The notes: generated by a model not told the origin, from the letters alone. A stretch of DNA of 64,000 bases from Bacillota bacterium (GCA_041695355.1 JBGFRB010000002.1:25962-89961), one strand, 5' to 3'; shown: positions 2,745-16,731, counted from the stretch's first letter. A program made the numbers and translations.

Positions 2745-2767
2745 TCGGTGTCACCGCTAACTCAGCA

Positions 2768-3325: not shown

Positions 3326-3346
3326 TTTACTTCCTAAGTTTGGCAG

Positions 3347-3375
3347 TTGACGCAACAGGTAAAGCTAGCTATAAT
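3347..3375 (+). promoter_or_regulatory. sigma-A type promoter, TTGACG-17 nt-TATAAT
   Basis: TTGACG at 3347-3352 and TATAAT at 3370-3375 with an exact 17-nt spacer, about 50 nt upstream of the ATG at 3426. Confidence 0.7.
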
Positions 3376-3380
3376 GGTGA

Positions 3381-3395
3381 TGAGAAGGATTTTCA
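3381..3395 (+). promoter_or_regulatory. Fur-family 7-1-7 operator candidate (TGAGAAG-G-ATTTTCA)
   Basis: Matches 11 of 14 positions of the Bacillus-type Fur 7-1-7 consensus TGATAATnATTATCA. It starts 6 nt after the -10 element. It is nearly identical to the box at 7876-7890 (ATGAGAAGGATTTTCATT versus ATGAGAATGATTTTCAAT, 16 of 18). Confidence 0.55.
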
Positions 3396-3425
3396 TTCTT
3401 TACATACTGTCCGGGGGTGATAACA

Positions 3426-4124: not shown

Positions 4125-4152
4125 CGATAATAACAAAATATTTTAATTAGCC

Positions 4153-4176
4153 GCCCGGGAAACGGGCATTTTTTTA
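4153..4176 (+). terminator. rho-independent terminator
   Basis: GCCCG-ggaaa-CGGGC stem-loop followed by A and a run of 7 T, about 30 nt after the stop at 4124. Confidence 0.65.
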
Positions 4177-4203
4177 TATGCTTTTGCATACACAGGAAAA
4201 TTT

Positions 4204-5040
4204 ATGGAAATGATACCAGATAGATTTTATAGGAGGGAAGAACTGGTGACAGACCTTAATCATGCCGATGAAAAAGCTAAAAAAGGTAACGGAGAGGAAG
4301 GATTGGCACCTCCCTTAAACTATAGTGCCCCAGGACCCGTACCTTCGGGGCACTTTAATCCGTGGCAAACGGCTCCGCCTGGTGGATACGGCTACGTAAA
4401 CCCGGGGACATCGGCCGGGGGAGGCTACGTCAATCCGGGACAGACCGGTTTCCCGGGAAGTAATCCGGGCTATCAACAGCAAAGTACAAAAAAAATCAAT
4501 CAGGAGGGTCCCATGAGCTACGCAGGATATCCGGGAATGTACGGCGCTTATTACGGGCAGGGCATCAGAGATCCGCACTACAGATACGCAACCCCAGCGA
4601 ACTACCCGTATCATTATCACCCTCAACATGATCACTCTTGTTACCATCATCCTTATTATTATCGCTATGGATATAATCCTTACTATGGCGGCGCCGGTTA
4701 CGGGATGAATCCGGCCGGACCCGGCTACGGCGATCCGTGCTGCAGCGGCGCCGGGCCAAACATCTTTACTCCTGGATATTTTTCCTACATGCTGCACAGC
4801 CCCAGGGTAAATAATTTCTTCCGCGCCATTGGTATTTTGACGGTGGGTATGTTACTGATTCCATCGGTCGCAAGGGCTTTACGTCCCCTTGCCGTCTCCG
4901 CTGTTGAAGGTGCTTTGACTGTTTCACAGGAAGTAAAAAATATCTTCAACGATGCCAGGGAAGATGTGGAGGATATGTTTGCCGAGGCTAAGTGGAAAGA
5001 TGGAAAAGAAGCGGGAAAAGAAGGTAACCAGGGCAGCTAG
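4204..5040 (+). CDS. membrane-anchored protein with a roughly 200-aa Gly/Pro/Tyr/His-rich low-complexity N-terminal region and a C-terminal TM plus amphipathic helix module (possibly DUF5132-type)
   Basis: Translation read directly. It has GGYGYVNPG / GGGYVNPG repeats and a His/Tyr patch HYRYATPANYPYHYHPQHDHSCYHHPYYYRYGYNPYY. The C-terminus (FFRAIGILTVGMLLIPSVARALRPLAVSAVEGA) is paralogous to the next ORF. Confidence 0.6.
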   Translation: MEMIPDRFYRREELVTDLNHADEKAKKGNGEEGLAPPLNYSAPGPVPSGHFNPWQTAPPGGYGYVNPGTSAGGGYVNPGQTGFPGSNPGYQQQSTKKINQEGPMSYAGYPGMYGAYYGQGIRDPHYRYATPANYPYHYHPQHDHSCYHHPYYYRYGYNPYYGGAGYGMNPAGPGYGDPCCSGAGPNIFTPGYFSYMLHSPRVNNFFRAIGILTVGMLLIPSVARALRPLAVSAVEGALTVSQEVKNIFNDAREDVEDMFAEAKWKDGKEAGKEGNQGS

Positions 5041-5128
5041 TCGCTTTTGCGGCTTTTTGCAGTAGCATCAATATTTACCTCCTTGCGCAGGAATACTAAG
5101 AATAAAGACTGCGTGAGGAGGTTTTGCC

Positions 5129-5377
5129 ATGTTAAGTTTGTATAGAAAGTTGTTTTACACCGCTCCCTTTCGCAGGGGCCTTTGGTGGGGCGCAGGCACC
5201 GCAGGGGTACTGTGGCTCTTTGGCAAGAACCTGCGGCCGCTGGCAGTGGAAGGCGCCAAGAAATTGATTAAACTGGACCAAGGAGTTAAGGACGCTGTCC
5301 GGCAGGCCAGCGAAGGTGTAAGCGGAATTGTAATGGAGGCCCAGGCCAACAGGTTGAAAGATAAGGAGTACCGGTGA
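5129..5377 (+). CDS. small single-pass membrane protein, paralog of the C-terminal module of the 4204 ORF (possibly DUF5132-type)
   Basis: GAGGAGG RBS. It shares the LRPLAV-EGA-V(K)(N/D) segment with ORF 4204-5040. Its stop overlaps the ATPase start (TGAATG), suggesting translational coupling. Confidence 0.6.
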   Translation: MLSLYRKLFYTAPFRRGLWWGAGTAGVLWLFGKNLRPLAVEGAKKLIKLDQGVKDAVRQASEGVSGIVMEAQANRLKDKEYR

Positions 5378-7714
5378 ATGAGTTTTGGCCGGATTGAAGC
5401 GATCCATTGTTTGCCCGGAAGGGTTCGGGTAAAAATACACGGTTTAAAAGGGAACGTCCCCTTTGCAGTTTCACTGGAAAATACCTTGCGCAGAAACGAG
5501 TATGTTTTTCACGTTAAGGCTAATCCGCAAACGGCTAAAGCCTTAATTCTCTTTGACGGAGAAAGGTTGCCTCCGGAAACACTCTTTGCTGAACTAAAGA
5601 CTGATATACACTATATTTCGCAGAGAGTTGCACCCGTTGACGTCAGGCAAAATCGGATTCAGGCGGGAACTGCAATCAGGCGAAAAGATGAAACGTTTGA
5701 GCCGGAAGATATGCCGCTTGCGGTTCAGGTTGCCCAGGTGGCCGTCACCGGCGCTATCCTCCTGGGGCTGATTTTAAAGAGATATTTTTTTAAAACATCA
5801 CTGCCGGTCTCCTCCGGCAGGGTGAATTTTCTGGCTACGATGACCACAATCATAGCCGGCTATCCCATTATCCGAAGCGGCCTGGAGAAACTGATCACCC
5901 GCGGAAAACTGAATAACGACCTGCTTATCAGTACATCAACAATGGTTGCGCTGTTGTTAAAAGAAAATATTACCGGGCTGGTGGTTGTCTGGCTGGTAAA
6001 CCTGAGTACCCTGCTGCAGACACTAACGATGAAAAAATCACGGAAAGCAATCAAAGAAATGTTACAGGGTAAGGAAGAGACAGCCTGGATTGAAATAGAC
6101 GGTACTGTGGTCTCGATTCCCGTTGACAGCATTGAAGTGGGAAACACCATTCTCTGCTTTATCGGCGACCGCGTACCTGTTGATGGTGCAGTTACCGATG
6201 GCGAGGCAACTGTCAGCCAGGCTGTCATTACCGGTGAGTCAGTGCCGGTAATGAAAACCCCGGGAGACAAAATATATGCAGGTTCCATTGTGGAGCAGGG
6301 CACGGTCAGAATCCTGGTGGAAAAGGCAGGACAGAATACTTCCATTGCCAAAATTGCGGCCATGGTAGAGGATGCTTCCTGTGACAGGGCTCCGGTTGAG
6401 AATATGGCGGACCGTTATGCTGATAGAATTGTTCCCTTCTCATTTGGACTGGCCGCGCTGGTATACCTGTTAACCAGGGATTTCAAGCGCAGCATGACCA
6501 TGTTGGTGGTCGCCTGCCCCTGTGCCGCCAGCCTTGCTACGCCCACTGCTATCAGCGCATCCATGGGTAATGCGGCGCGACGCGGTATATTGGTCAAGGG
6601 AGGGAGCTACCTGGAAAGAGTGGGTAAGGCTGACGTGGTCCTATTTGATAAGACAGGTACGTTAACCGAAGGCAAACCCACCGTCAGAGAAATCCTGCCC
6701 ATGAGCAAAACATTCCCTATTGATATGATAGTACAGCTTGCTGCTTCGGTAGAGTATCAGACAAATCATCCCCTGGCCGGCGCGGTGGTAAAGGCTGCTG
6801 AGGAAATGGGGCTTGAATTGCATCCTGTTAGCCGGAAGGAAGTTATTATCGGCCAGGGCGTCAGGGGAAGCATTAAAAATGTGCCTTTGGCTGTGGGCAA
6901 CTCTACTCTGATGAGAGATATGGGGATTAACATTACGTTGGCAAAGGCCAAAGCTTACAGGCTGCATATGCTGGGGCAAACCGTTCTGTATGTGGCCCGG
7001 TACAACAGGCTGATCGGTCTCATTGCCATCGCCGACAACATCCGTCCTGACAGCCTGACAGCTATCCGGAAACTGCGGCAGGCCGGTATAGAACATATTG
7101 GTTTAGTCACAGGCGACAGCAATGGCACAGCTGACCTGGTGGCGCGGGAATTGGGGCTTGACAAGGTATGGTCGGAAACAATGCCGGCTGACAAAGTACG
7201 TATTGTTCAAAAATTCCAGCAGGCTGACAAAACAGTTGTCATGGTGGGAGACGGTATTAATGACTCGCCGGCTCTGGCCAGGGCTGATATCGGAATAGCT
7301 ATGGGTACCGGGGGAACGGACGTGGCTATTGAATCGGCGGATATTGTGCTGGCTGCCGACGATCCCCTGAAAATAGCCTCTCTGATTAGTTTAAGCAAAC
7401 ATACCCTGGAGATCATAAAACAGAATTTCCTGTTTGCGGTGGGGATCAATATCAGCGGACTGCTCCTGGGAGCGGGCAAGGTGATTACTCCGTTAACAGC
7501 AGCCGTCTTACACAATATAAGCACCTTTGGCGTGGTGGCGAACTCATCGAGGCTGTTTCACTTTAATCCTGATTCCGTGAAAGGAAGGCGCGGTAATGCC
7601 GGAATTAAGCGAACTGGAAGGCAAAATGAAAATGGCTATGAAGGAGCTAAAGGAATGCGTAGAGGTAAGTATGCGGATCAGAGCGGAAGACCCCGAAGCA
7701 AAAAAAAGAATTGA
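5378..7714 (+). CDS. heavy-metal translocating P1B-type ATPase with an N-terminal cysteine-less HMA-like (HMA2-type) domain
   Basis: Motifs TGESVPV, ACPCAASLATP (CPC in the TM helix), DKTGTLT, NHPLA, GDGINDSPAL and HNISTFGVVANSSRL. The N-terminus reads IHCLPGRVRVKIHG. Confidence 0.9.
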   Translation: MSFGRIEAIHCLPGRVRVKIHGLKGNVPFAVSLENTLRRNEYVFHVKANPQTAKALILFDGERLPPETLFAELKTDIHYISQRVAPVDVRQNRIQAGTAIRRKDETFEPEDMPLAVQVAQVAVTGAILLGLILKRYFFKTSLPVSSGRVNFLATMTTIIAGYPIIRSGLEKLITRGKLNNDLLISTSTMVALLLKENITGLVVVWLVNLSTLLQTLTMKKSRKAIKEMLQGKEETAWIEIDGTVVSIPVDSIEVGNTILCFIGDRVPVDGAVTDGEATVSQAVITGESVPVMKTPGDKIYAGSIVEQGTVRILVEKAGQNTSIAKIAAMVEDASCDRAPVENMADRYADRIVPFSFGLAALVYLLTRDFKRSMTMLVVACPCAASLATPTAISASMGNAARRGILVKGGSYLERVGKADVVLFDKTGTLTEGKPTVREILPMSKTFPIDMIVQLAASVEYQTNHPLAGAVVKAAEEMGLELHPVSRKEVIIGQGVRGSIKNVPLAVGNSTLMRDMGINITLAKAKAYRLHMLGQTVLYVARYNRLIGLIAIADNIRPDSLTAIRKLRQAGIEHIGLVTGDSNGTADLVARELGLDKVWSETMPADKVRIVQKFQQADKTVVMVGDGINDSPALARADIGIAMGTGGTDVAIESADIVLAADDPLKIASLISLSKHTLEIIKQNFLFAVGINISGLLLGAGKVITPLTAAVLHNISTFGVVANSSRLFHFNPDSVKGRRGNAGIKRTGRQNENGYEGAKGMRRGKYADQSGRPRSKKKN

Positions 7715-7832
7715 TAACTACTGGGAGCAGTTTCTGTTCCACTTCCTCGAGTATGTCAGGCGGCGGGAAAAAGAGAGCGGAGAAGACCTTTTAAAAAGCA
7801 TCTCCCTGTTAAAATTGCTCAAACTGTTTTAA
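7596..7832 (+). CDS. possible small helical protein (78 aa) overlapping the ATPase 3' end by 119 nt
   Basis: ATG preceded by AGGAAGG at a 7-nt spacing. The product is Glu/Lys-rich and looks helical, whereas the overlapping ATPase tail is an Arg/Gly/Lys-rich low-complexity string. No family recognised. Confidence 0.3.
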   Translation: MPELSELEGKMKMAMKELKECVEVSMRIRAEDPEAKKRIDNYWEQFLFHFLEYVRRREKESGEDLLKSISLLKLLKLF

Positions 7833-7840
7833 AAACGCTC

Positions 7841-7869
7841 TTGACATGAGCGGGTAAAATAAATATACT
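7841..7869 (+). promoter_or_regulatory. sigma-A type promoter, TTGACA-17 nt-TATACT
   Basis: TTGACA at 7841-7846 and TATACT at 7864-7869 with a 17-nt spacer, about 47 nt upstream of the ATG at 7916. Confidence 0.65.
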
Positions 7870-7876
7870 AGTATAT
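7863..7876. promoter_or_regulatory. perfect 14-bp palindrome ATATACTAGTATAT overlapping the -10 element
   Basis: Self-complementary by direct reading. A second inverted repeat, TATATGA (7872-7878) / TCATATA (7894-7900), brackets the Fur-like box. Confidence 0.5.
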
Positions 7877-7890
7877 GAGAATGATTTTCA
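7876..7890 (+). promoter_or_regulatory. Fur-family 7-1-7 operator candidate (TGAGAAT-G-ATTTTCA)
   Basis: Matches 12 of 14 positions of TGATAATnATTATCA. The 19-mer GAGAATGATTTTCAATATC (7877-7895) matches 15 of 19 positions of GATAATGATAATCATTATC. Its position relative to the -10 element is the same as for the box at 3381. Confidence 0.6.
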
Positions 7891-7915
7891 ATATCATATA
7901 CTTGGGGTGGAAAAC

Positions 7916-8197
7916 ATGACAGTATTATTGGTTGGCGCGGACAGGCTTGGGAATATGCCGAAAGAACTGGAAGATCACGGCGCCAGAGAAATCATTCATT
8001 GGTCGGGACGCAAGGAAAGAAACAGGGAGATTCCGAGACATGTTGATATGGTTCTCGTTGTTCACGACTATGTTAACCATTCGTTGATGGACAGCGTCAA
8101 AGGACAGGCCAAGCGCCGCCGGTTGCCCATTGTCTTTGCCAAAAGAGGGGTGGCCGACCTGAAACAGGCATTGACAAACGGGAAACGACAGGCGTGA
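7916..8197 (+). CDS. DUF2325-like small protein
   Basis: ATG at 7916 with a GGGGTGG RBS; the track's GTG at 7907 is less likely. The pattern VLLVGADRLG...HW.G...VDMVLVVHDYVNHS...AK resembles DUF2325 from memory. Confidence 0.6.
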   Translation: MTVLLVGADRLGNMPKELEDHGAREIIHWSGRKERNREIPRHVDMVLVVHDYVNHSLMDSVKGQAKRRRLPIVFAKRGVADLKQALTNGKRQA

Positions 8198-8232
8198 AAC
8201 AGTTCTTTCCCCCAGCGGAGGAGAAATCATAG

Positions 8233-8937
8233 ATGATGACCAAAATTGTCAGGTTTTTTCAGCCCGGTGTACAAAAGACCGGTTTCGGCTTTGCCGGGTA
8301 CCGTGAGCAGGCTGAAGCAAATTATCAGGATTTTTTTCACGACATCATTGAGTGTCTGATTGCGGCGCTGGAAGCGAAGGACGTGTATACATGCGGCCAT
8401 TCTTCCAGGGTGGCGGATATGTCCTTAGACCTGGCACGAGCACTGGAAATAAAAGGTGCGGACCTTGACGACGTACATATTGCGGCTCACTTGCATGATG
8501 TGGGGAAAATCGGAATCTCAGAAAATATTTTAACCAAGCCGGGAAAGCTGATTGCTCATGAATGGGCGCAAATGCAGAGGCACCCGGTAACAGGCTATAA
8601 CATCCTGCGTAAATCAAAACTGCTTTATAAGATTGCCAAAATAGTTCTCCACCATCATGAAAGATGGGATGGGACAGGCTATCCCCAGGGCTTGCAGAGA
8701 AACCATATTCCCTTAGGTTCGAGAATAATTGCCGTGGCCGATGCCGTTGATGCCATGACCACGGATAGGCCTTACAGAACGCCTCTGTCTTGGGATGGTT
8801 GTTATCAGGAATTGCAGAAGAACAAAAGTAAGCAATTTGACCCGATAGTGGTCGATGCCGCAGCACAATTCCGGAAAAAATGGGCGGAAATCCGGTATGA
8901 TAAGCAGGTTGCGGATAAAAGACAGCAGAGCGATTGA
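8233..8937 (+). CDS. stand-alone HD-GYP domain phosphodiesterase (c-di-GMP turnover)
   Basis: Motifs HSSRVA, HLHDVGKIGI and HHHERWDGTGYPQGL, with a GGAGGAG RBS. Confidence 0.85.
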   Translation: MMTKIVRFFQPGVQKTGFGFAGYREQAEANYQDFFHDIIECLIAALEAKDVYTCGHSSRVADMSLDLARALEIKGADLDDVHIAAHLHDVGKIGISENILTKPGKLIAHEWAQMQRHPVTGYNILRKSKLLYKIAKIVLHHHERWDGTGYPQGLQRNHIPLGSRIIAVADAVDAMTTDRPYRTPLSWDGCYQELQKNKSKQFDPIVVDAAAQFRKKWAEIRYDKQVADKRQQSD

Positions 8938-8943
8938 AACATA

Positions 8944-9495
8944 ATGAGGAAGTCGGGTGAGATTATGAAGACATTTCTTGGCAGTGTTGTCTTTTCCCTG
9001 GTGAGCGGTGCTATGATGAAAAGTATATGTGCGTTGAACATCCGTGTTTTACACGCTATGCCCGGCAGAATGCGCCTGCAGTGCAATGCCTGGAAAAGTG
9101 AACCCGTTGCGGAAGGGGTGGCTGATTCCCTCCGTAGATATAGCTTTGTGGAGCGAGTAAACATATCTCCGGTTACCGGGAGTTTGCTGCTCCAATTCAC
9201 GCAAAAGCACTTGAGCCGGAAACAGGTTGACAAGGTTATGGATTTGCTGGCGAAACAAACGATGGCAGGTATTGAAAAAGAAGTGTCCAGTTCTACACTG
9301 TTGATGGGCCGGATAGTTAATCACCTGGACAGTCAGGTAAAAGTAGCATCAAATGGGATCTTTGATTTGCTGTCTCTTTTTATTATTGCCCTGACTGCTC
9401 AGGCAGTAAGGGGGTTTAGCAGTAACCGCGGCAATTCACTTCAGCAGTTGTTCTGGGTGTACAGGTTGCTGCGAGGCGGGAGGCAAGTAATTTGA
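8944..9495 (+). CDS. HMA-like (HMA2-type, no CxxC) domain protein with a C-terminal hydrophobic segment
   Basis: LHAMPGRMRLQCNAW...VNISPVTGSLLLQF parallels the N-termini of both ATPases. There is a TM-like stretch GIFDLLSLFIIALTAQAV. Its stop overlaps the TTG start of the next ATPase (TTGA). The start could instead be the ATG at 8965. Confidence 0.6.
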   Translation: MRKSGEIMKTFLGSVVFSLVSGAMMKSICALNIRVLHAMPGRMRLQCNAWKSEPVAEGVADSLRRYSFVERVNISPVTGSLLLQFTQKHLSRKQVDKVMDLLAKQTMAGIEKEVSSSTLLMGRIVNHLDSQVKVASNGIFDLLSLFIIALTAQAVRGFSSNRGNSLQQLFWVYRLLRGGRQVI

Positions 9496-11651
9496 AGAGC
9501 TCTATACAGGTGCTCCATCACCTGCCCGGAAGGGTGAGGATACGAATCGGCAAAGGCCTGGGTCATGCGACACTGATTGAAAGCAAATGCCGTCGCCTGC
9601 CTCAGGTATATGCGGCAAACTACGCTGAGCAAACAGGAACTCTTTTGCTTTACTATGACCCGTTATTTCCCGGGAGCAGGGTCATGCTCTGGGTGAGAGA
9701 GCTGTTTTTGAACGGTAAGAAAACAACTGAGCAGCATGACTACGGGAAAAATGGATCGCCGGCGTTATCATCAGAGATTTTTAAAAACATCCTGGCCATT
9801 GCAGTCTATGCCATTGAACGTTCCCTGACGCCCTCCCGGAAAGCTGAGGAAAGCGGGCTGCGCCGTCTTTTAAGTCCGACGGTTCTGGCCTTGCTGTTTG
9901 CCGCCAAACAGGTTATTCGCAGTGGAATTGACAGTATGATGATAACGAAGCAGGTAAACGCCGTTACTTTAACTGCAGTGGCCGTCCTTGCCGCAGCCGT
10001 AAAGGGGAAGGCCGGTTCTGCATTAATCATCGTTACTCTTTCTAATCTCGGGGAAATACTGACCCAGTACACTGCCAATAAAACAAGAAACTATATCACA
10101 CGTATGCTGAAGCTGGATGTCCCCTACGTGTGGCGGGTGGAGAACGACGGAAATGAGCGTAGTGTTCATATCGACTCAGTGGTTCCGGGAGAAACAATCG
10201 CAGTTTTTATAGGGGAAAAAATATCGGTGGATGGTTGCGTGACTTATGGTTTGGGGACCGTTGACGAGTCTTCGCTTACAGGCGAATTTATGCCCCGGGA
10301 GGTGGTAAAGGGTAGCCGTGTTTATGCCGGCAGCATCTTAAAGTCAGGCTATATTCAGATCCAAGCGGAGAGGGTAGGCGACGACACAGCAATTACCCGT
10401 ATGATAAAACTTATTGAACAGGCCCAAAACAGACGAGCGCCGATCCAGTCACAGGCGGATAAAATGGCCCAGTCGCTGGTTCCCGTGTCATTTGCCATGG
10501 CGGCGGCTGTTTACGCTTTGACCAAGGACTGGAGCCGCGTAATGAACATGCTGTTCATCGATTATGCCTGCGGCCTGACACTTTCTACAACGACCGCCAT
10601 TTCCGCAGCTATTGGTAAAGCGGCCAAACACGGCATTTTAATCAAAGGAGGGCAATACATAGAGTGGCTATCCGGGGTGGATACGGTTGTCTTTGATAAA
10701 ACGGGAACCCTTACTGAAGGAAGGCCGGTAATTCGTAACATTTATTATTTTAATAACCATACAAAAGAGGATGTAATTCGCTATGCGGCTTCTGCTGAAG
10801 AGCATTCCTCGCACCCCTTTGCCGGTACCATTTTGCAGTATGCCAGGGAACAGCAATTATGTATTCCGGAACACGGTGAGGTGTTAAACATCATAGGCCG
10901 GGGCATACAGGCGGAGATAGACGGCAATATGGTACTGGTGGGCAGTGACCTGCTGATGAAGGAGAAGCTTGTTGATCTCAGTTCCCGCCAGACGGAAGAG
11001 CTGAAGGCTGCGGCGGATGAGGCGATGATTTATGTCGCGTGTAACGGCAGGCTTATGGGCATGATCAGCGTTCATGACCCGGTGCGTGCGGGGATGAATC
11101 GCACCGTTAACCAGTTGCGCCGTCAGGGGATTGACGAAATTATCCTTCTTACAGGCGATAAAAAGCGGTTAGCCGGCCATATTTCCAATAAACTGTTTTT
11201 TGATAATTACCACGCTGAGTTGTTGCCGGAAGATAAGGCCAACTTAATTAAATGGTACCGGCAAGGCGGCAGCAGGGTGATGATGGTGGGTGACGGTATT
11301 AATGATGCGCCTGCCCTGGCTTATGCGGATGTGGGAGTTACATTAGGTGGCAAGCGTACAGATATGGCTATGGAAGCCAGTGACGTAATCATCATTGGAG
11401 ATGACCCCCTACAGTTGCCCACACTAATCAGACTTGCTCAGCAGACAATGAAAACCATCCGGCAAAACTTCTTAACTACCATTATGGTTAACAGCATAGC
11501 GATGATGCTGGGAGCAATGGGTACTATCACGCCGGTTCAGGCAGCTCTGATACATAACGCGACCACTATCGGCGTGGTGGTTAACAGTTCCAAGATAATA
11601 TTTGTAAAGCTTCCCGGTAATGGTAACGTTACCGTGCATGAGAGGAGGTGA
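9492..11651 (+). CDS. divergent P1B-like P-type ATPase with an N-terminal HMA2-like domain and no CPx motif
   Basis: Motifs TGEFMPR, DKTGTLT, SSHPFAG, GDGINDAPAL and HNATTIGVVVNSSKI. The position aligned with CPC reads DYACGLTLSTTTAI, which lacks the proline. The N-terminus reads LHHLPGRVRIRIG. Confidence 0.88.
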   Translation: MKSSIQVLHHLPGRVRIRIGKGLGHATLIESKCRRLPQVYAANYAEQTGTLLLYYDPLFPGSRVMLWVRELFLNGKKTTEQHDYGKNGSPALSSEIFKNILAIAVYAIERSLTPSRKAEESGLRRLLSPTVLALLFAAKQVIRSGIDSMMITKQVNAVTLTAVAVLAAAVKGKAGSALIIVTLSNLGEILTQYTANKTRNYITRMLKLDVPYVWRVENDGNERSVHIDSVVPGETIAVFIGEKISVDGCVTYGLGTVDESSLTGEFMPREVVKGSRVYAGSILKSGYIQIQAERVGDDTAITRMIKLIEQAQNRRAPIQSQADKMAQSLVPVSFAMAAAVYALTKDWSRVMNMLFIDYACGLTLSTTTAISAAIGKAAKHGILIKGGQYIEWLSGVDTVVFDKTGTLTEGRPVIRNIYYFNNHTKEDVIRYAASAEEHSSHPFAGTILQYAREQQLCIPEHGEVLNIIGRGIQAEIDGNMVLVGSDLLMKEKLVDLSSRQTEELKAAADEAMIYVACNGRLMGMISVHDPVRAGMNRTVNQLRRQGIDEIILLTGDKKRLAGHISNKLFFDNYHAELLPEDKANLIKWYRQGGSRVMMVGDGINDAPALAYADVGVTLGGKRTDMAMEASDVIIIGDDPLQLPTLIRLAQQTMKTIRQNFLTTIMVNSIAMMLGAMGTITPVQAALIHNATTIGVVVNSSKIIFVKLPGNGNVTVHERR

Positions 11652-11655
11652 AAAA

Positions 11656-11889
11656 ATGTTAGTAAAGTCAGATTTTTGGATTGGTTTGGCAGTGGGTGCG
11701 GTGACCGGAGTGGTGGGATACCGTCTCTATGACCAATACGGGGACCAACTGAGAAGTCTGGTACTGCAATCCTGCGCTCCGGTAGTCCAGACGGTAACAG
11801 GTGGCGCAGAACCAAGCCTGGAAGAACTGGTTGCGCAAAAAGAGCGGCTGGAGGATCTGATAGCAGAAAAAAAGCAGAAAAATATATAA
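11656..11889 (+). CDS. small single-pass membrane protein with a Gly-zipper TM (GLAVGAVTGVVG) and a charged helical tail
   Basis: ATG at 11656 after GAGGAGG. It starts 5 nt after the ATPase stop. No family assigned. Confidence 0.5.
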   Translation: MLVKSDFWIGLAVGAVTGVVGYRLYDQYGDQLRSLVLQSCAPVVQTVTGGAEPSLEELVAQKERLEDLIAEKKQKNI

Positions 11890-12013
11890 ATGGGTACTGC
11901 TCACGGGCGTTGGCGGCAAAAGCATCACCGCCAATGTCCGTGGGACAACGGCGGACAGTGTGTGTAAGTGGCGCTCCTGTAACGTGGAGCGGAAGACATG
12001 TGAGGCGATCGGC

Positions 12014-13369
12014 ATGAGCAAAAATCTGAAAGATGCCATGAAAAATATTTCTGTCAGTTGCCTGGGTTCCATAAAATTCTGGGGTTTCCCGCTGGTAGCG
12101 TGGACGCTGCTGGCTGCCGCTTCATTACTTTGGAATCTTTACTCTCTCAGGCAGAACACGCTTAAAGCCTTTATGTATGAAGCGCAGACACTGGCCGGGG
12201 TAGCGTTGTCTACCATCATGTGGACTGCCCAACATGAACGGGTATATGTCCCGCTTACTGAATGGATTCCTCCGGAACCATTCTTTGCACAGTTGCCTGA
12301 AAGAGAAGTTGTCACTACCGGCGGTTTAAGGTTTGCGCAGGTATCGCACGCTTTAATCAGCCGCCAGGTAGCGGAACAGGCTTTGCTTCATGGCTGGGAA
12401 CAGAAATCTATCCGCATGACCAGCCTGGAACCGTTAAACCCTGTTAATATGCCTGATAAATGGGAAAAAGACGCATTAAAGAGTTTTAAAAATGGGCAAA
12501 CAGAAACATTCGCCCTTACCGGAGAAGGAGCAGGGGCTTTACTAAAATATATGATGCCTCTCAGGGCAAGGCCGGAATGCCTGAAATGCCATCTTGGCTA
12601 CAGAGAAGGGGACGTCCTTGGCGGTTTGTCTGTCAGTGAGCCGGCGGCGTCACGCCTTGCCATGGTTAAACCACAAATTATCAGCATGATTGCTACTCAC
12701 GCAGGTATATTTTTCTTGGTTGCGGTGGCGATGCTCTTTCTTCTGTCGCGCTTGAGGCGGCAGTGGCTTGATCTTGACCGGAGCAACAATGAGCAGAAAA
12801 ATATGATCGTAAAGCTGGCCGAAAGCGAGGCCAAGCTAAAAGAAATGGCCATCACGGACGAACTTACCGGACTAAAAAACAGGCGGGGATTTTTTCTCCT
12901 TGCCGAACAACTGATAAAGGCAGCTAACCGGCAGAAAACAAAGATCTGGTTTATTTTTATTGATGTTGACGGGATGAAATCAGTTAATGATAAGTACGGG
13001 CATAGCGAGGGGGACGTATCCCTGACCGCGACTGCTGTCATCCTTAAGAATACCTTTCGGGAGTCAGATGTAGTCGCGCGCATAGGTGGGGATGAATTTG
13101 CGGCCATTATCGCAGGTGCCGGTGAAAACAGCGGCTGCGCTATTTTGGCTCGGTTGCGTGAAAATCTGGACCTATACAATGCCGGCGTAATAAAACCCTA
13201 TAGATTGTCCTTCAGTGCCGGCATCGTTTATTGCGACCCTGCTGAAACGTCCTGCAGTATTGAAGCGCTGCTAAAAAAGGCAGATGAATTAATGTATGAA
13301 AGTAAGCGGGGAAAAACCCATTACTGCAATGGCTGCAATACAGGCTCATCCGCGTTGGAACCGGCCTGA
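12014..13369 (+). CDS. membrane diguanylate cyclase (GGDEF) with a periplasmic c-type-heme DUF3365-like sensor domain
   Basis: One CxxCH (PECLKCH) lies between two TM segments. A coiled linker follows, then RIGGDEFAAI. The internal ATG at 12014 (MSKNLKD) is the likely start. Confidence 0.8.
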   Translation: MSKNLKDAMKNISVSCLGSIKFWGFPLVAWTLLAAASLLWNLYSLRQNTLKAFMYEAQTLAGVALSTIMWTAQHERVYVPLTEWIPPEPFFAQLPEREVVTTGGLRFAQVSHALISRQVAEQALLHGWEQKSIRMTSLEPLNPVNMPDKWEKDALKSFKNGQTETFALTGEGAGALLKYMMPLRARPECLKCHLGYREGDVLGGLSVSEPAASRLAMVKPQIISMIATHAGIFFLVAVAMLFLLSRLRRQWLDLDRSNNEQKNMIVKLAESEAKLKEMAITDELTGLKNRRGFFLLAEQLIKAANRQKTKIWFIFIDVDGMKSVNDKYGHSEGDVSLTATAVILKNTFRESDVVARIGGDEFAAIIAGAGENSGCAILARLRENLDLYNAGVIKPYRLSFSAGIVYCDPAETSCSIEALLKKADELMYESKRGKTHYCNGCNTGSSALEPA

Positions 13370-13405: not shown

Positions 13406-14710
13406 TTATTGAGGCTCGCTTGCTTCCCTGGCGGCAGTTTGCATCTCCTTGGCCAGACGCATGGCCTCCGCCAGAATCAGCAGCGCTTCCCGCGGATTGT
13501 GGAAGCCTTTGCTGTTGGCTGCAAATACCCAGTCATAGCGGAGAAACGCCATGAAATGGAGGCGCTGTGCCCTGGCCAGCGCTTCCGCATCTGCTCCCTG
13601 TTGATTCCTGGCTTCCTGCAGCAGAGAGATTCCCCTGACAAGTTCTTTTTCCACTTCTGTGAGCAGGCCCTGTACCTGTTCCTGTATGGCGGCAATCCTG
13701 TCACGCAGGTAATCTTCGCTTTGGCGGTGGCAGACGCCGCACGATACCGTGACATTGTCGGCGGGGCTGGCAAATTCGTGAGATGTGATTTTCCTGTTAC
13801 CTGTTTTCAGAAAGGGCATGTGGCAGTCGGCACAGCTTACGCCGGCAACGTGGTGGGCGCCGCCGCTAAAAAACTCGAAATCGGGATGACGGATTTTGGG
13901 GATACCGGTACCGGTTCGCTCGTGCGTCCAGGAACGGTACGTTGACTCCGCATAGTAGGCTTCCACAGACTGCAGGGCTGGTGGCTCATCCCAGGGGATT
14001 TTTACCTCGCCTGTGGCCTGGTCCATAAAATATGTGACGTGGCACTGCGCGCAAACCAGTGAGCGCATTTCCTGACGGCCCGCTTTCTTTAGGTCCCCTC
14101 CCGCCCTGCTGTATGCCTGAATAAACGGCTCTCTGGTCAGCTGCAGAGCCATTGTCTCACTGTCATGACAGTCACTGCAGGAAACCGGGTGCTTGACGAG
14201 GGCTCTCGCCTCCGGAAAAGTCATCTCATAAAAATCCAGGCCCATCTCAGCGATACGTAACGGCGCTTCCGCCGACTTGCATGTCAGGCAGCCCGCTCTG
14301 TTGTTCCGGAAAGGGGCCGCACGCTCCACATCCTCCAGGGAACGGGGGTGTCCCCTTCTTTCCCGGATGTCCGGCGCAGCCTCATATCCGGCCCAGAGTA
14401 TTTCAAGGGCGGGCCGCAACTCCACCTTGCGGGGCGGTATTTCGCCGGTGTAGCGGGGGGTATCTCCTCCTTTCAGCCCTTTCAAATACGACTGATAATG
14501 GTCGGGAAACCATTTGCCCCAGCTGGCCGGATTAGTGTCACCGGCTTCAATGTCCCAGCGTATCGGCGGCCGGGACGGCAGAACGTGCCTTTTGTAAAAC
14601 TGCCTGGTTGCCAGTATACCGGCGCCGATGCCTGCGAGTAACAGCACAAAAGCAAAAATAACCGGCCGAAGCCACTTTTCCCAGCCGTTATGTCTGTTTT
14701 TCTTTTTCAT
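13406..14710 (-). CDS. nrfA: pentaheme cytochrome c nitrite reductase (ammonia-forming), catalytic subunit
   Basis: The CLTCK (CxxCK) hallmark plus four CxxCH motifs (CSDCH, CAQCH, CADCH, CGVCH), with an N-terminal TM/signal anchor. Confidence 0.88.
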   Translation of the reverse strand: MKKKNRHNGWEKWLRPVIFAFVLLLAGIGAGILATRQFYKRHVLPSRPPIRWDIEAGDTNPASWGKWFPDHYQSYLKGLKGGDTPRYTGEIPPRKVELRPALEILWAGYEAAPDIRERRGHPRSLEDVERAAPFRNNRAGCLTCKSAEAPLRIAEMGLDFYEMTFPEARALVKHPVSCSDCHDSETMALQLTREPFIQAYSRAGGDLKKAGRQEMRSLVCAQCHVTYFMDQATGEVKIPWDEPPALQSVEAYYAESTYRSWTHERTGTGIPKIRHPDFEFFSGGAHHVAGVSCADCHMPFLKTGNRKITSHEFASPADNVTVSCGVCHRQSEDYLRDRIAAIQEQVQGLLTEVEKELVRGISLLQEARNQQGADAEALARAQRLHFMAFLRYDWVFAANSKGFHNPREALLILAEAMRLAKEMQTAAREASEPQ

Positions 14711-15131
14711 GAGAACCCCCTTGCAACCGGTGCGGCGTCTGCCGGTGACAGTGAATACAGTCCAACGTTTCTTTTGCCGGAAAGTCCCTCAGCAAGACAC
14801 CGTGACAGCGCAGGCAGTTTTCTCTGACAATGCGTTGCGTCGGCGGTTTCGCCCTGTAAAGGTCCGGCGTGTCCCCGATAAAGTACCGGTATACGTCCCT
14901 GATTCCGTAACGCAGCGTATGATATATTCCCCGGATGTCCTGCGGAATATGGCAGGCCTGACAGTTGGTAAACGGCCTGTGGGCGGAGTGGAGCCAGGTT
15001 TCATAGAGAAGTTCCACGCCGTGGCAGAGGTTGCAGAACTCCGGCGTTTCCGTAAACTCATAGGCCCGGAAGCTTAAATATCCTATAGCTATAAAAGAAA
15101 CTGTCAGTGCGATGACGGTAAAACGGCTCAT
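14688..15131 (-). CDS. nrfH: tetraheme NapC/NirT-family quinol dehydrogenase, NrfH
   Basis: An N-terminal TM and four CxxCH motifs (CNLCH, CQACH, CLRCH, CIHCH). It overlaps the nrfA start by 23 nt. Confidence 0.85.
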   Translation of the reverse strand: MSRFTVIALTVSFIAIGYLSFRAYEFTETPEFCNLCHGVELLYETWLHSAHRPFTNCQACHIPQDIRGIYHTLRYGIRDVYRYFIGDTPDLYRAKPPTQRIVRENCLRCHGVLLRDFPAKETLDCIHCHRQTPHRLQGGSHEKEKQT

Positions 15132-15287
15132 TCAACACCTCTGTCGGTTTCCTTCACGTAATTTATTCTGGTGCAGAAAGGGTAAATTTAAACAAAAATA
15201 CTCCTCTTGTAAATCTAATATTGCTTTACTTTTTGAGTTTGTATGACATAATATAAAAATAAAAGGAAATTGCATGGAGGTACCACA

Positions 15288-15530
15288 ATGTCACTTGCCA
15301 AAATATCGGAAAAGGGCCAGCTTACTTTGCCCAAAGAGATTAGGCGAAGATACAACATTAACAAAGCGAGCTATGTGCGCATCATTCCGCTGGAAGACGG
15401 TGTTAAACTGGTTCCTACTAATCAGGGAGGAATATCTTCTTTGCGGGGTGTTGTAAAGGTTGATGGGGAGCAAGACTTCAGGGCCATACGCAATCAGGTA
15501 ATGGAGACCCGCTATCGTGAGAACCATTGA
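15288..15530 (+). CDS. AbrB/SpoVT-type antitoxin (VapB-like)
   Basis: The N-terminus MSLAKISEKGQLTLPKEIRRRYNI is a swapped-hairpin signature. GGAGG lies 7 nt upstream of the ATG at 15288. It overlaps the PIN gene. Confidence 0.75.
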   Translation: MSLAKISEKGQLTLPKEIRRRYNINKASYVRIIPLEDGVKLVPTNQGGISSLRGVVKVDGEQDFRAIRNQVMETRYRENH

Positions 15531-15918
15531 TGCCAATGTTGTCCTGCGCTATTTAACCAACGATGTTCCAGACCAGGCGAGGCAGACCGAGGAATTATTT
15601 AAAAGGGTTGAAGAGGGAAAAGAGGATTTATTCCTGCCGGATATTATTCTGGCGGACATAATATGGATTCTTGAACGGTACTACAAACAAACAAGAGAAG
15701 ATATCCGAGAATGGCTCACTGCAATAATAGGTTTGCAGGGGTTGAGATTATCTGATAAAGATATGTCATTGAATGCTTTGGATATTTATGTGGATAAGAA
15801 AATTGATTGGTCGGATGCGTTTACGGCCAGCCAGATGCTGCAACGGGGGATTACAAAAATATACTCATTTGACAAGCATTTCGACCGGATTGATGGTATT
15901 ATCAGAATTGAACCGTGA
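15517..15918 (+). CDS. PIN-domain toxin (VapC-like)
   Basis: The N-terminal IDANVVLRYL acidic residue and the 133-aa size fit a PIN domain. The 14-nt overlap with the upstream antitoxin is typical type II TA architecture. Confidence 0.75.
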   Translation: MRTIDANVVLRYLTNDVPDQARQTEELFKRVEEGKEDLFLPDIILADIIWILERYYKQTREDIREWLTAIIGLQGLRLSDKDMSLNALDIYVDKKIDWSDAFTASQMLQRGITKIYSFDKHFDRIDGIIRIEP

Positions 15919-15964: not shown

Positions 15965-16684
15965 ATGCTGGCCGACTATTATGATTTAATTTTCCCTCCG
16001 GAACAAAGCAAAACAGATTTTCTGCACAGGGAATTTGCCGCCGTGGGAGCGCGGCGTGTTCTTGACCTGGCCTGCGGTACGGGCACATACACGATTGAAC
16101 TGGCGCGCCTCGGGTACGAGGCCTGGGGGACGGACCTGGAGCCGGCTTTGCTTGAACTGGCTCAAAGCAAGGCGGCGCACGCCAGGGTGGCGGCCACGTT
16201 CGCCGCGGGGGACATGCGGCAGCCGGAGGCGCTGGGGCTCATGTTTGACAGTCTCCTTTGTATCGGCAATTCTCTGCCTCATTTGCAGGAGAAAAACGAC
16301 TTGGAGTCGGCGCTGGCGGCCATGCGGAGAGTGCTGCGCAGTCCCGGCAGAGCCGTGTTGCAAATTGTCAATTTTGACCGTATCCTGGCTTTGGGAGACA
16401 CGGAGTTGCCGCTGATTGAGCGGGGAGGCTTACGTTTTACCCGTACATACCGTCCGCGGGGAGAGGGGCGCCTGCTGTTTGATTCCGTCCTGGAAGTGGC
16501 CGGGAAGGGTGAGGGCGCTGCCCGCTTTGAAAACCGGGTCATTCTGCGGCCGCTCCGGCGGGCCGACTTGGAGAGGTTTCTCCTGGCGGCGGGATTTGCG
16601 GCTGTCAGGGTGTACGGCGATTTTAAGTACGGGGAATATCGGGCTGCTGATTCACAGGCCACGGTTGCCGTGGCCGAATGCTGA
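15965..16684 (+). CDS. class I SAM-dependent methyltransferase
   Basis: VLDLACGTG motif. The track ORF starts at 15773 inside vapC, so I prefer the ATG at 15965 (MLADYYDLIF). Confidence 0.75.
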   Translation: MLADYYDLIFPPEQSKTDFLHREFAAVGARRVLDLACGTGTYTIELARLGYEAWGTDLEPALLELAQSKAAHARVAATFAAGDMRQPEALGLMFDSLLCIGNSLPHLQEKNDLESALAAMRRVLRSPGRAVLQIVNFDRILALGDTELPLIERGGLRFTRTYRPRGEGRLLFDSVLEVAGKGEGAARFENRVILRPLRRADLERFLLAAGFAAVRVYGDFKYGEYRAADSQATVAVAEC

Positions 16685-16731
16685 GTTCAGACGGGAATAT
16701 GAGTGTCCCTTTAATTTTGGAGGGGAGAGCG

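What the first reader, a model, noticed from the sequence alone, without database searches (positions are those of the whole stretch)
9492..11651. Second ATPase has lost the invariant CPx proline (YAC instead of CPC) yet keeps an intact catalytic core
Alignment by eye of the metal-binding TM helix gives MLVVACPCAASLATPTAI in ATPase 1 and MLFIDYACGLTLSTTTAI in ATPase 2. The phosphorylation site DKTGTLT, the TGE actuator motif (TGEFMPR), the HP motif and GDGINDAPAL are all intact, so it is probably an active pump with a non-canonical ion site. Both pumps share an HN-x-(S/T)-T motif in the last TM region. Proline-less TM4 motifs are what I recall for the poorly characterised P1B-6/P1B-7 groups, but I cannot verify the assignment by eye.
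Basis: partly seen in the sequence, partly recalled or inferred. Interest (0 to 1): 0.65.

Follow-up and report, generated by a model that had tools for sequence, protein, structure and literature searches.

The report
Proline-free metal pump, sister of ferrosome FezB
The second ATPase really lacks the usual Cys-Pro-Cys metal site, but it is an intact, conserved member of an already catalogued (though never tested) group of bacterial metal pumps that is the closest relative of the iron pump that fills ferrosome iron-storage organelles.

Summary
ORF 9492-11651 encodes a 719-aa P1B ATPase with TM4 reading DYACG where pumps normally have CPC, and with DKTGTLT, TGE, HP, GDGINDAPAL and HNATT intact. 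It is under purifying selection (dN/dS about 0.12-0.14).

It is not an oddity. It belongs to a well-supported clade (98% bootstrap) defined by D[Y/F]xCG in TM4, HNxxT in TM6 and an N-terminal arginine-rich CoBaHMA/HMA_2 domain. This clade is sister to canonical P1B-6/FezB (D[Y/F]SCA), the ferrosome pump. Grant & Komeili (2020) already list the clade, including a 63%-identical Desulfitibacter protein with the same DYACG motif. No member has been characterised.

The gene sits in a conserved core: HMA_2 membrane protein, then the ATPase (start overlaps the upstream stop), then a 77-aa glycine-zipper/acidic-helix protein.

In the window this core follows DUF2325 and an HD-GYP gene, behind a strong promoter carrying a Fur-box-like operator. 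A near-identical operator precedes the ATPase 1 module. ATPase 1 is CtpC-like (CPC) with PacL-like partners, and its module is an insertion absent from relatives.

Best reading: an active, iron-regulated divalent-metal (probably Fe2+) pump working ferrosome-like. The substrate and compartment are inferred, not shown.

The parts
9492..11651 (+). ATPase 2: 719-aa P1B ATPase of the D[Y/F]xCG / HNxxT / R-rich clade, sister of FezB. Features: N-terminal CoBaHMA-like domain (residues 1-60); DYACG at 10560-10574; DKTGTLT at 10695-10715; HNATT at 11553-11567.
8944..9495 (+). 183-aa HMA_2/CoBaHMA protein (HAMPGRMRLQ) with a C-terminal hydrophobic hairpin. Its TGA stop overlaps the TTG start of ATPase 2. 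It is conserved directly upstream of the ATPase across the clade.
   Evidence: PF19991, 66 bits; synteny; alignment
11656..11889 (+). 77-aa single-pass protein with a glycine zipper (GLAVGAVTGVVG) and a conserved acidic helix (EELVAQKERLEDLIAEKK). PacL-like/FezA-like in architecture. Conserved directly downstream of the ATPase or its third HMA_2 gene.
   Evidence: E 3e-4 to a PacL-like protein in L014; no Pfam hit
7841..7896 (+). Promoter TTGACA-17-TATACT (7841-7869) followed 6 nt later by the Fur-box-like operator TGAGAATGATTTTCA (7876-7890). An overlapping second match lies at 7882-7896.
   Evidence: only hit with 2 or fewer mismatches in 64 kb; expected 0.08; hexamers and box invariant in L002 and L009 while the spacer varies
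7907..8197 (+). DUF2325 gene, first gene behind the operator. It also follows Fur boxes in Desulfitibacter (L001).
8233..8937 (+). HD-GYP-type (HD_5) c-di-GMP phosphodiesterase-like gene between DUF2325 and the HMA_2 gene. Present at the same place in L004, L009, L012 and L013; absent in L002/L011.
5378..7714 (+). ATPase 1: 778-aa CtpC-like P1B ATPase (ACPCAAS, HNIST, R-rich HMA_2 N-terminus). It is 36% identical to ATPase 2.
4204..5377 (+). Two PacL-like genes (278 aa at 4204-5040; 82 aa at 5129-5377). Each has one TM segment, an LRPLAV motif and an acidic helix. The 278-aa protein also has a long Gly/Tyr/Pro/His-rich N-terminal region.
   Evidence: DUF1490 E 0.0056, below cut-off; E 1e-13 and 3e-12 to proteins next to CtpC-like ATPases in L014/L015
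3347..4124 (+). Second promoter TTGACG-17-TATAAT (3347-3375), operator TGAGAAGGATTTTCA (3381-3395) and a 235-aa protein of unknown function (3417-4124). This heads the ATPase 1 module, which is an insertion relative to L002.
11960..13369 (+). GGDEF diguanylate cyclase with a Tll0287-like sensor domain. It is conserved downstream of the ATPase 2 operon in L013, and a GGDEF gene follows the operon in Desulfuribacillus (L003).

Best explanation
ATPase 2 is a functional P1B-type metal pump of the D[Y/F]xCG-HNxxT clade, the sister group of the ferrosome pump FezB (P1B-6).

Metal site. In this clade TM4 has no proline at all. The transmembrane site is built from the one retained cysteine (C360, flanked by D357 and G361), an Asn in TM5 (N667) and His-Asn-x-x-Thr in TM6 (H688, N689, T692).

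N-terminus. It is not a CxxC metal-binding domain. It is an arginine-rich CoBaHMA/HMA_2 domain, which in related systems docks small membrane partners.

Operon. The pump is made from an operon together with a CoBaHMA membrane protein (translationally coupled upstream) and a 77-aa glycine-zipper/acidic-helix protein (downstream). In this organism the operon lies behind a sigma-70-type promoter whose start region carries a Fur-type operator.

Inferred working. When iron falls, repression is lifted. The pump, held in a membrane patch or vesicle by its partners, moves a divalent metal out of the cytosol using ATP. The metal is most likely Fe2+. This is the logic of fez/ferrosome systems.

What is shown: family placement, intact catalytic and ligand residues, purifying selection, conserved partner genes, conserved operator.

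What is inferred: the metal, the compartment, the identity of the regulator, and partner binding.

Confidence split: about 0.9 for the classification and for it being an active pump; about 0.45 for Fe2+ and ferrosome-like working. The single figure of 0.6 is a compromise between the two.
For: Classification:
- TIGR01525, 534.6 bits.
- The TM4 motif is ID[YF][S/A/V/I]CG in all 120 best homologues.
- NJ tree of 158 sequences with 200 bootstraps: xCG clade 98%, FezB (SCA) clade 93%, xCG+(SCA+xTG) 83%.
- Grant & Komeili Suppl. Table 1 lists this group separately from FezB. It includes K364_00695 (DYACGLK/HNVAT), which is P0009, 63% identical.

Activity:
- DKTGT, TGE, HP, GDGxND and C360/N667/H688/N689/T692 are invariant in 87 relatives.
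- dN/dS is 0.12-0.14 over gapless 719 aa.
- The AF2 model (pLDDT 85.6) is a P1B fold, with a helix break at residues 356-357 despite the missing proline.

Partners:
- The HMA_2-ATPase-small protein core is present in 7/7 examined contexts from Firmicutes, Fusobacteria and Gammaproteobacteria.
- Alignments show conserved motifs.

Iron link:
- The Fur-like box is the only hit with 2 or fewer mismatches in the window. It lies between the -10 hexamer and the RBS.
- It is conserved in orthologous loci while the spacer diverges.
- A near-identical box sits at the ATPase 1 module promoter.
- FeoA-FeoA-FeoB lies next to the operon in Desulfuribacillus, with Fur boxes.
- FezB systems are Fur-derepressed: a C. 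difficile fur mutant makes ferrosomes constitutively (PMC13307979).
- fez clusters are defined by R-rich plus GxxxG partners.
Against: - No member of the xCG clade has been tested for substrate or localisation.
- The clade shares its ligand set equally with CtpC, which is linked to Zn2+/Mn2+.
- ZnuA/ABC-3 (Mn/Zn/Fe) importers, not Feo, flank the operon in Neobacillus and lie near it in Desulfitibacter.
- The operator deviates from the Fur consensus at the symmetric position 4/12, so it could belong to another Fur-family regulator.
- No Fur box was found upstream of the operon in UBA993, Desulfitibacter, Neobacillus, Leptotrichia or Succinimonas loci.
- The HMA_2 partner lacks the conserved membrane histidines that make FezC a haem protein.
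- The tree is neighbour-joining on 50%-identity representatives, not maximum likelihood with the published reference set.
Confidence: 0.6

Rival explanations
1. ATPase 2 is a plasma-membrane efflux pump for Zn2+, Mn2+ or Co2+. It would work like M. tuberculosis CtpC with a PacL scaffold (an 'effluxosome'), not as an iron-storage pump.
For: - The CtpC group shares the R-rich N-terminus and the C / N / HNx(S/T) ligand set, and is about as similar to ATPase 2 (36-38%) as FezB is (33-35%).
- The 77-aa partner has PacL-like architecture and weak similarity to PacL-like proteins.
- JGI names relatives 'cation-transporting P-type ATPase C'.
- ZnuA/ABC-3 transporters are neighbours in two genomes.
- A true CtpC-like pump with PacL-like genes sits 2 kb upstream under the same operator.
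Against: - The bootstrap tree groups the clade with FezB, not with CPC-type pumps (83% against 0%).
- An operator overlapping the promoter implies repression by the metal-loaded regulator. That suits a storage system induced on starvation and is the opposite of known detoxification pumps.
- The box resembles Fur rather than Zur, PerR or MntR boxes.
- Feo is adjacent in Desulfuribacillus.
Confidence: 0.25
2. ATPase 2 is a canonical P1B-6/FezB orthologue, and the locus is simply a fez (ferrosome) operon with a trivial Ser-to-Ala, Ala-to-Gly motif drift.
For: - HNxxT, the R-rich motif, and the D, Y and C of the TM4 motif are all present.
- Ala at the Ser position also occurs inside FezB proper (Dde_0498 DYACAVK; Lautropia DYACALK).
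- R-rich and glycine-zipper partner genes are present, as in fez clusters.
Against: - The xCG clade is separated from the SCA clade with 98% and 93% support.
- Identity to FezB-type sequences is only 33-35%.
- 143/143 xCG proteins lack the second TM4 proline, which 33/34 SCA proteins keep.
- Grant & Komeili colour the group separately from FezB.
- The HMA_2 partner lacks FezC's haem-histidine membrane domain.
Confidence: 0.1
3. ATPase 2 is a decayed or non-transporting paralogue (a regulatory or scaffolding remnant) that lost its metal site together with the CPC motif.
For: Loss of both TM4 prolines and of the first cysteine, which are normally treated as essential in P1B pumps.
Against: - All catalytic motifs and five transmembrane ligand positions are invariant.
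- dN/dS is 0.12-0.14.
- The clade is widespread: thousands of homologues, and 143 xCG sequences among those retrieved.
- The model keeps a TM4 break at the usual place.
Confidence: 0.03

Closest known systems
Unnamed D[Y/F]xCG group of R-rich P1B ATPases in Grant & Komeili 2020, Suppl. Table 1 (colour #FCE7F1). Examples: Desulfitibacter alkalitolerans K364_00695, 'Firmicutes bacterium MLFW-2', Clostridium kluyveri CKL_1140, Leptotrichia buccalis Lebu_2040, Bacillus vireti BAVI_23178.
   Same: Same TM4 motif class (DYACGLK in two listed members), HNxxT, and the HxxPGRxRxR N-terminus. ATPase 2 is 63% identical to K364_00695 (P0009). Same clade at 98% bootstrap.
   Different: The window protein has DYACGLT (Thr instead of Lys/Arg after the motif), as do its five closest homologues. 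The window operon lacks the first (about 100 aa) and third (about 200 aa) HMA_2 genes seen in Desulfitibacter, Desulfuribacillus and Neobacillus. It has DUF2325 and HD-GYP instead.
FezB, the P1B-6 ATPase of ferrosomes (D. magneticus DMR_28330, S. putrefaciens, R. palustris RPA2333, C. difficile)
   Same: Sister clade. Shares Asp-aromatic-x-Cys in TM4 with no CPx proline, HNxxT in TM6, and an R-rich N-terminal domain. Gene clusters carry R-rich and GxxxG partner proteins. Fur-type control is known for FezB and only predicted here.
   Different: FezB has D[Y/F]SCA and keeps the downstream TM4 proline. Here the motif is DYACG and TM4 is fully proline-free. Identity is 33-35%. The partner is not a FezC-type haem protein. 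No ferrosome evidence exists for this clade.
CtpC-PacL1 'effluxosome' of Mycobacterium tuberculosis
   Same: R-rich, non-CxxC N-terminal domain and an N...HNx(S/T) TM5-6 motif. A small single-pass partner with a Gly motif in the TM segment and a Glu/Ala-rich helix is encoded next to the pump. ATPase 1 of the window is of this type (ACPCAAS/HNIST) with PacL-like genes upstream.
   Different: CtpC keeps CPC; ATPase 2 does not. The DUF1490 match of the window's PacL-like protein is below Pfam's threshold. CtpC is a zinc-induced detoxification pump, whereas the operator position here suggests repression by metal.
CopA / ZntA (solved P1B structures 3RFU, 4BBJ, 7R0G, 4UMV)
   Same: Overall fold and all cytoplasmic catalytic motifs. 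Best sequence and fold matches in the PDB.
   Different: About 30% identity. These have CPC in TM4 and CxxC HMA domains. They lack the HNxxT motif. No structure of a P1B-6-like pump is in the PDB copy searched.
CoBaHMA domain family (Pfam HMA_2, PF19991; Gaschignard et al. 2024)
   Same: The N-terminus of both ATPases and the 183-aa partner match PF19991. The AF2 model shows an extra N-terminal strand and the basic GRxRxR strand.
   Different: CoBaHMA was described from calcyanin and amorphous CaCO3 biomineralisation loci. Its role here is inferred only.

Membership tests
P1B-type (heavy-metal) P-type ATPase | DKTGT phosphorylation site, TGE, HP, GDGxNDxP; TIGR01525 above cut-off | tested here: met
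   534.6 bits against a cut-off of 346.25. Motifs located and invariant in the alignment.
Canonical CPx-ATPases (P1B-1/P1B-2/P1B-4: CPC, CPH, SPC) | x-Pro-x motif with proline in TM4 | tested here: not met
   HMMER alignment to CopA 3RFU puts Y-A-C opposite C-P-C. There is no proline anywhere in TM4.
P1B-6 / FezB | TM4 signature D[Y/F]SCA | tested here: not met
   The window has DYACG: D, Y and C match, while Ser is replaced by Ala and Ala by Gly.
P1B-6 / FezB | TM6 signature HNxxT | tested here: met
   HNATT at residues 688-692, invariant H, N and T.
P1B-6 / FezB | N-terminal R-rich motif (RxR / RxRxR) instead of CxxC | tested here: met
   HHLPGRVRIRIG. The PF19991 match is weak (E 0.0061) for ATPase 2 and clear for relatives. 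AF2 shows an HMA-like fold.
P1B-6 / FezB | Phylogenetic placement inside the FezB clade | tested here: not met
   It falls in the xCG clade (98%), outside the SCA clade (93%), with the two as sisters at 83%. NJ only.
P1B-6 / FezB | fez-type cluster: GxxxG membrane protein(s) and R-rich protein(s) beside the pump | tested here: met
   A 183-aa HMA_2 protein lies upstream and a 77-aa GxxxGxxG protein downstream. Both are conserved across the clade.
P1B-6 / FezB | FezC-type partner with haem-binding histidines in its membrane domain | tested here: not met
   No conserved His in the membrane part of the HMA_2 partner. The invariant residues there are G138, D141 and W171 (compared).
P1B-6 / FezB | Required for, and located on, iron-phosphate ferrosome granules | not testable with these tools
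   Needs genetics, TEM/EDX and fractionation.
D[Y/F]xCG R-rich clade (Grant & Komeili Suppl. Table 1, group #FCE7F1) | TM4 D[Y/F]xCG, TM6 HNxxT, R-rich N-terminus, and clustering with listed members | tested here: met
   DYACG/HNATT/GRVRIRI. 63% identity to the listed K364_00695. Clade bootstrap 98%.
P1B-7 | CSC motif in TM4 | tested here: not met
   The motif is given in PMC13460109. The window has YAC.
CtpC-PacL effluxosome module | CPC pump with N...HNx(S/T), plus a DUF1490 (PacL) single-pass partner encoded alongside | tested here: inconclusive
   ATPase 1 has ACPCAAS/HNIST, and its upstream 278-aa/82-aa proteins are PacL-like. DUF1490 scores E 0.0056, 17 bits, against a cut-off of 28. Homologues lie beside CtpC-like pumps. 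ATPase 2 lacks CPC, and its 77-aa partner is only architecturally PacL-like.

The most novel reading that the evidence does not exclude
The CoBaHMA protein - D[Y/F]xCG pump - 77-aa glycine-zipper protein operon specifies a second, so far unseen kind of ferrosome-like metal-storage compartment or membrane platform in anaerobic Firmicutes and Fusobacteria.

Its distinctive features would be:
- a wholly proline-free TM4 and a one-cysteine metal site;
- Fur-type control here;
- a link to c-di-GMP turnover (HD-GYP upstream, GGDEF downstream in several lineages).

In this organism it has been combined under the same operator with an inserted CtpC/PacL-type pump module.
Probability: 0.2. Interest if true: 0.6.

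Novelty: new member of a known kind. Interest (0 to 1): 0.3.

Why it matters
The proline of the CPx motif is usually treated as indispensable in heavy-metal pumps. This clade, at least 143 sequences in the sets retrieved here, does without either TM4 proline. It still keeps a strictly conserved Cys/Asn/His-Asn-Thr set.

That makes it a natural test case for how P1B pumps open their ion site and select metals.

It is also the nearest relative of the ferrosome pump FezB. It carries its own conserved partner genes. Nobody has yet asked whether it builds an organelle, which metal it moves, or why it sits beside c-di-GMP enzymes.

The window adds one more member and a clear regulatory lead, the Fur-like operators. 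It does not add a new kind of system.

Tried and rejected
Papers not held. Smith et al. 2014 (my guess at its PMC id), Grant et al. 2022 in Nature (PMC10906721) and Ferrara et al. 2024 (PMC11659020) are not in the library. The P1B-6 definition was therefore taken from the bioRxiv version and its supplement and from a 2026 review. The Chem Rev review's ferrosome text lies beyond the part held.

Genome-collection scan with the single protein. It gave one locus only: UBA993, 87% identity.

Metagenome scan for the NMLFIDYACG coding pattern. It gave five loci, all close relatives. I therefore could not measure neighbourhood statistics across the whole clade. Seven contexts were read by hand instead.

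Pfam scans. Nothing usable at E up to 5 for the 77-aa, 82-aa and 235-aa proteins. DUF6110 never appeared.

Other operator types. Zur, PerR, MntR and DtxR/IdeR box searches in 2700-12100 gave only poor matches, 3-5 mismatches inside genes.

Fur gene. A crude regex for a Fur-family protein in the window found none, so the regulator is unidentified.

CtpC-like set. My hand-picked set was not monophyletic in the NJ bootstraps (3%). ATPase 1 is therefore described as lying among CPCAxG/HNxST pumps, not as a proven CtpC orthologue.

Rejected ideas:
- That the two ATPases are recent duplicates. They are 36% identical and fall in different clades.
- That the pairing is conserved. No relative's locus has the ATPase 1 module.
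Full report
**Observation.** ORF 9492-11651 (+) translates without interruption into a 719-aa protein.
- It matches E1-E2_ATPase and HAD hydrolase domains.
- It scores 534.6 bits on TIGR01525, heavy-metal P-type ATPase, cut-off 346.
- ATPase 1 (5378-7714) has ACPCAAS and HNIST.
- An independent HMMER alignment to the solved CopA structure 3RFU puts D-Y-A-C-G opposite A-C-P-C-A. So 'YAC instead of CPC' is the correct register. Only the second cysteine survives.
- The downstream TM4 proline (ATPTA in ATPase 1) is also absent (STTTA).

**Gene model.** The public gene call for this contig (JGI metagenome 3300045453, contig Ga0484003_000049) is 655 aa and omits the N-terminus.
- The TTG at 9492 overlaps the TGA of the upstream gene.
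- The first 64 residues are conserved without gaps in orthologues that are 81-87% identical.
- The 719-aa model is therefore the right one.

**Is it a working gene?**
- Against orthologues L002 and L004, dN/dS is 0.12-0.14.
- An 87-sequence alignment spans three related clades. The catalytic residues are invariant, as are five membrane positions: C360 (TM4), N667 (TM5), and H688, N689 and T692 (TM6).
- An AlphaFold2 model built on that alignment has mean pLDDT 85.6 and pTM 0.76. It has a P1B fold and an N-terminal beta-beta-alpha-beta-beta-alpha domain. TM4 is modelled as two helices (347-355 and 358-379) with a break at I356-D357, which is where CPC pumps are kinked.
- The best fold matches are CopA and ZntA. 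No closer structure exists in the PDB copy.

**What family?** Grant & Komeili (bioRxiv 10.1101/2020.01.10.902569) define FezB, the P1B-6 ATPase required for ferrosome formation, by three features: D[Y/F]SCA in TM4, HNxxT in TM6, and an N-terminal 'R-rich' motif. Their Supplementary Table 1 sorts R-rich P1B ATPases into colour groups:

| Group | TM4 | TM6 |
|---|---|---|
| FezB | DYSCA[LI]K | HNxxT |
| Separate unnamed group | D[YF][S/V/I/A/C]CG | HNxxT |
| CtpC group | ACPCA[VA]G | HNxS[ST] |
| FezH | ACPCATV | HIxHT |

- The unnamed group contains Desulfitibacter alkalitolerans K364_00695 (DYACGLK, HNVAT, HLMPGRVRIYIG). That protein is my hit P0009, 63% identical to ATPase 2.
- All 120 best homologues carry ID[YF]xCG. 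DYACG occurs in 16, DYSCG in 73 and DYVCG in 14.

**Tree.** A search of 1.84 billion representatives returned xCG, CPC-type and SCA-type pumps in that order of similarity. A neighbour-joining tree of 158 sequences (625 trimmed columns, 200 bootstraps) gave these supports:

| Grouping | Bootstrap |
|---|---|
| xCG clade | 98% |
| SCA (FezB) clade | 93% |
| Third D[YF]x[TS]G group with SCA | 100% |
| xCG sister to those two | 83% |
| All R-rich groups together | 89% |

- ATPase 2 is 33-35% identical to FezB-type sequences and 36-38% to CPC-type ones.
- One further discriminator: none of 143 xCG proteins has a proline within nine residues after the motif, whereas 33 of 34 SCA proteins do.
- ATPase 2 is therefore a member of the catalogued but uncharacterised sister clade of FezB. 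It is not P1B-6 in the strict sense, and it is not P1B-7 (CSC motif).

**Surroundings of ATPase 2.** Seven contexts from the clade were read: Desulfitibacter, Desulfuribacillus, Neobacillus, Leptotrichia, Succinimonas, and two groups of close metagenomic relatives.
- All have one or two HMA_2 (PF19991) genes directly upstream. The last of these overlaps the ATPase start.
- Most have a further HMA_2 gene and/or a 73-107-aa unannotated gene downstream.
- In the window these are the 183-aa protein (8944-9495; PF19991, 66 bits) and a 77-aa protein (11656-11889).
- The 77-aa protein has a glycine zipper, GLAVGAVTGVVG. Its helix EELVAQKERLEDLIAEKK is almost invariant between Firmicutes genera.
- PF19991 is the CoBaHMA domain, the structural name for the R-rich motif.
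- The architecture parallels fez clusters, which combine R-rich and GxxxG proteins.
- The HMA_2 partner has no conserved membrane histidines, so it is not a FezC-type cytochrome.

**ATPase 1 is a separate, inserted module.**
- In the orthologous locus L002 the gene order is activase, Fe-hydrogenase-like, 187 aa, DUF2325, HMA_2, ATPase, 73 aa. The window has 3417-7832 inserted between the 185-aa gene and DUF2325.
- None of seven relatives' loci carries an ATPase 1 homologue.
- ATPase 1 (ACPCAAS/HNIST, clear HMA_2 N-terminus) lies among CPCAxG pumps, the grade containing CtpC.
- The 278-aa and 82-aa proteins upstream share a TM segment, an LRPLAV motif and an acidic helix. They match proteins encoded beside CtpC-like pumps in two other Firmicutes (E 1e-13 and 3e-12). 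They hit DUF1490, the PacL family, weakly.
- In M. tuberculosis, PacL1 is encoded upstream of ctpC and scaffolds it.

**Regulation.** The two best sigma-70-like promoters in 3200-12100 are TTGACG-17-TATAAT (3347-3375) and TTGACA-17-TATACT (7841-7869).
- Each is followed 5-6 nt later by nearly the same imperfect palindrome: TGAGAAGGATTTTCA (3381-3395) and TGAGAATGATTTTCA (7876-7890).
- The second is the only match in the 64-kb window to the Fur 7-1-7 consensus with two or fewer mismatches; 0.08 are expected by chance. It matches 16 of 19 positions of the classical Fur box.
- The hexamers and the box are invariant in orthologous loci L002/L011 and L009/L012, while the spacer differs.
- In Desulfitibacter, one-mismatch Fur boxes precede DUF2325. 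In Desulfuribacillus, boxes precede the operon and the adjacent GGDEF-feoA-feoA-feoB genes.
- Other relatives show no box, and the regulator itself was not found in the window.
- An operator placed over the transcription start implies repression by the metal-loaded regulator. This is the known logic of fez operons: a C. difficile fur mutant makes ferrosomes constitutively. It is not the logic of detoxification pumps.

**Mechanism.**
- Shown: ATPase 2 is an intact, selected P1B pump with a conserved Cys/Asn/His-Asn-Thr membrane site, no TM4 proline, a CoBaHMA N-terminus and two conserved membrane partners. In this lineage it is co-regulated with a CtpC/PacL-like module through a Fur-like operator.
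- Inferred: it exports a divalent metal from the cytosol, most likely Fe2+. It does so into a membrane compartment or patch organised by its partners, in a ferrosome-like way.
- Main rival: CtpC-like Zn/Mn efflux at the cell membrane. This is not excluded, because the ligand set is shared with CtpC and ZnuA-type importers are neighbours in two genomes.

**Novelty and verdict.** The clade, its motif, and even the DYACG variant are already tabulated in the literature. The finding is therefore a new member of a known kind, not a new kind.

What remains open and mildly interesting:
- The whole clade is uncharacterised.
- Its TM4 is entirely proline-free.
- It has its own partner set.
- It recurs next to c-di-GMP enzymes.

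Interest is scored at 0.3.

Noticed in passing
window 3381-3395 and 7876-7896: Two nearly identical Fur-box-like palindromes (TGAGAA[G/T]GATTTTCA). Each lies 5-6 nt downstream of the -10 hexamer of one of the two strongest promoter-like sites in the region. They head the ATPase 1 module and the DUF2325-HD-GYP-HMA_2-ATPase 2 operon. Both half-sites differ from the Fur consensus at the same symmetric position (purine instead of T).
   Followed up: yes
window 9492-9683: The public (JGI) gene call for ATPase 2 starts at an internal ATG (655 aa). It omits the conserved N-terminal CoBaHMA/R-rich domain. The real start is a TTG overlapping the upstream stop codon (ATTTGA).
   Followed up: yes
window 3417-7832: The whole ATPase 1 module is an insertion relative to orthologous loci (L002, L004, L009-L013). 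It comprises a 235-aa protein, two PacL-like proteins, the CtpC-like pump and a small downstream ORF. Homologues of the 235-aa, PacL-like and small proteins recur around CtpC-like pumps in L014 and L015.
   Followed up: partly
window 4204-4800: The 278-aa PacL-like protein has a roughly 200-residue low-complexity N-terminal region rich in Gly, Tyr, Pro and His (for example HYHPQHDHSCYHHPYYYRYGYNPYY). It could be a metal-binding or phase-separating region. Mycobacterial PacL1 instead has a short C-terminal His motif.
   Followed up: no
window 7596-7832 (JGI call 7671-7832): A small ORF overlaps the 3' end of ATPase 1. It resembles a 77-aa protein in the CtpC-like locus L014 by eye (shared motif WE.FL..F..Y, seen in the sequences printed). 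This was not tested by an alignment. It is probably a real conserved gene of unknown function.
   Followed up: partly
window 8233-8937 and 11960-13369; L003, L004, L009, L012, L013: c-di-GMP enzymes flank the ATPase 2 operon repeatedly. An HD-GYP gene lies upstream in five loci. A GGDEF cyclase with a Tll0287-like (haem/PAS-like) sensor lies downstream in the window and in L013. GGDEF and HD_5 genes surround feoAB next to the operon in Desulfuribacillus.
   Followed up: partly
window 7907-8197; L001 19272-19639; L009 5294-5572: The DUF2325 gene sits directly behind Fur-type boxes in two distant lineages (the window group and Desulfitibacter). That suggests an unrecognised iron-regulated function. 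In L009/L012 its 5' end appears deleted while the promoter and box are kept.
   Followed up: partly
proteins P0205, P0241, P0254, P0261, P0266-P0268: There is a third R-rich clade, sister to FezB (100% bootstrap). Its TM4 reads D[YF]x[TS]G with no cysteine, and its TM6 mostly reads [NS]NG instead of HN. These P1B-like pumps have lost all soft ligands, hinting at a hard-cation substrate.
   Followed up: no
window 13406-15131 (-), 15270-15918, 16678-18821, 21149-23122: Neighbouring genes: a NrfA-like cytochrome c552 with a NrfH-like partner, a MazE/PIN toxin-antitoxin pair, an OmpR-type two-component system and a hybrid-cluster (prismane) protein. This fits an anaerobic Firmicute. The nearest genome is MAG UBA993.
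   Followed up: no
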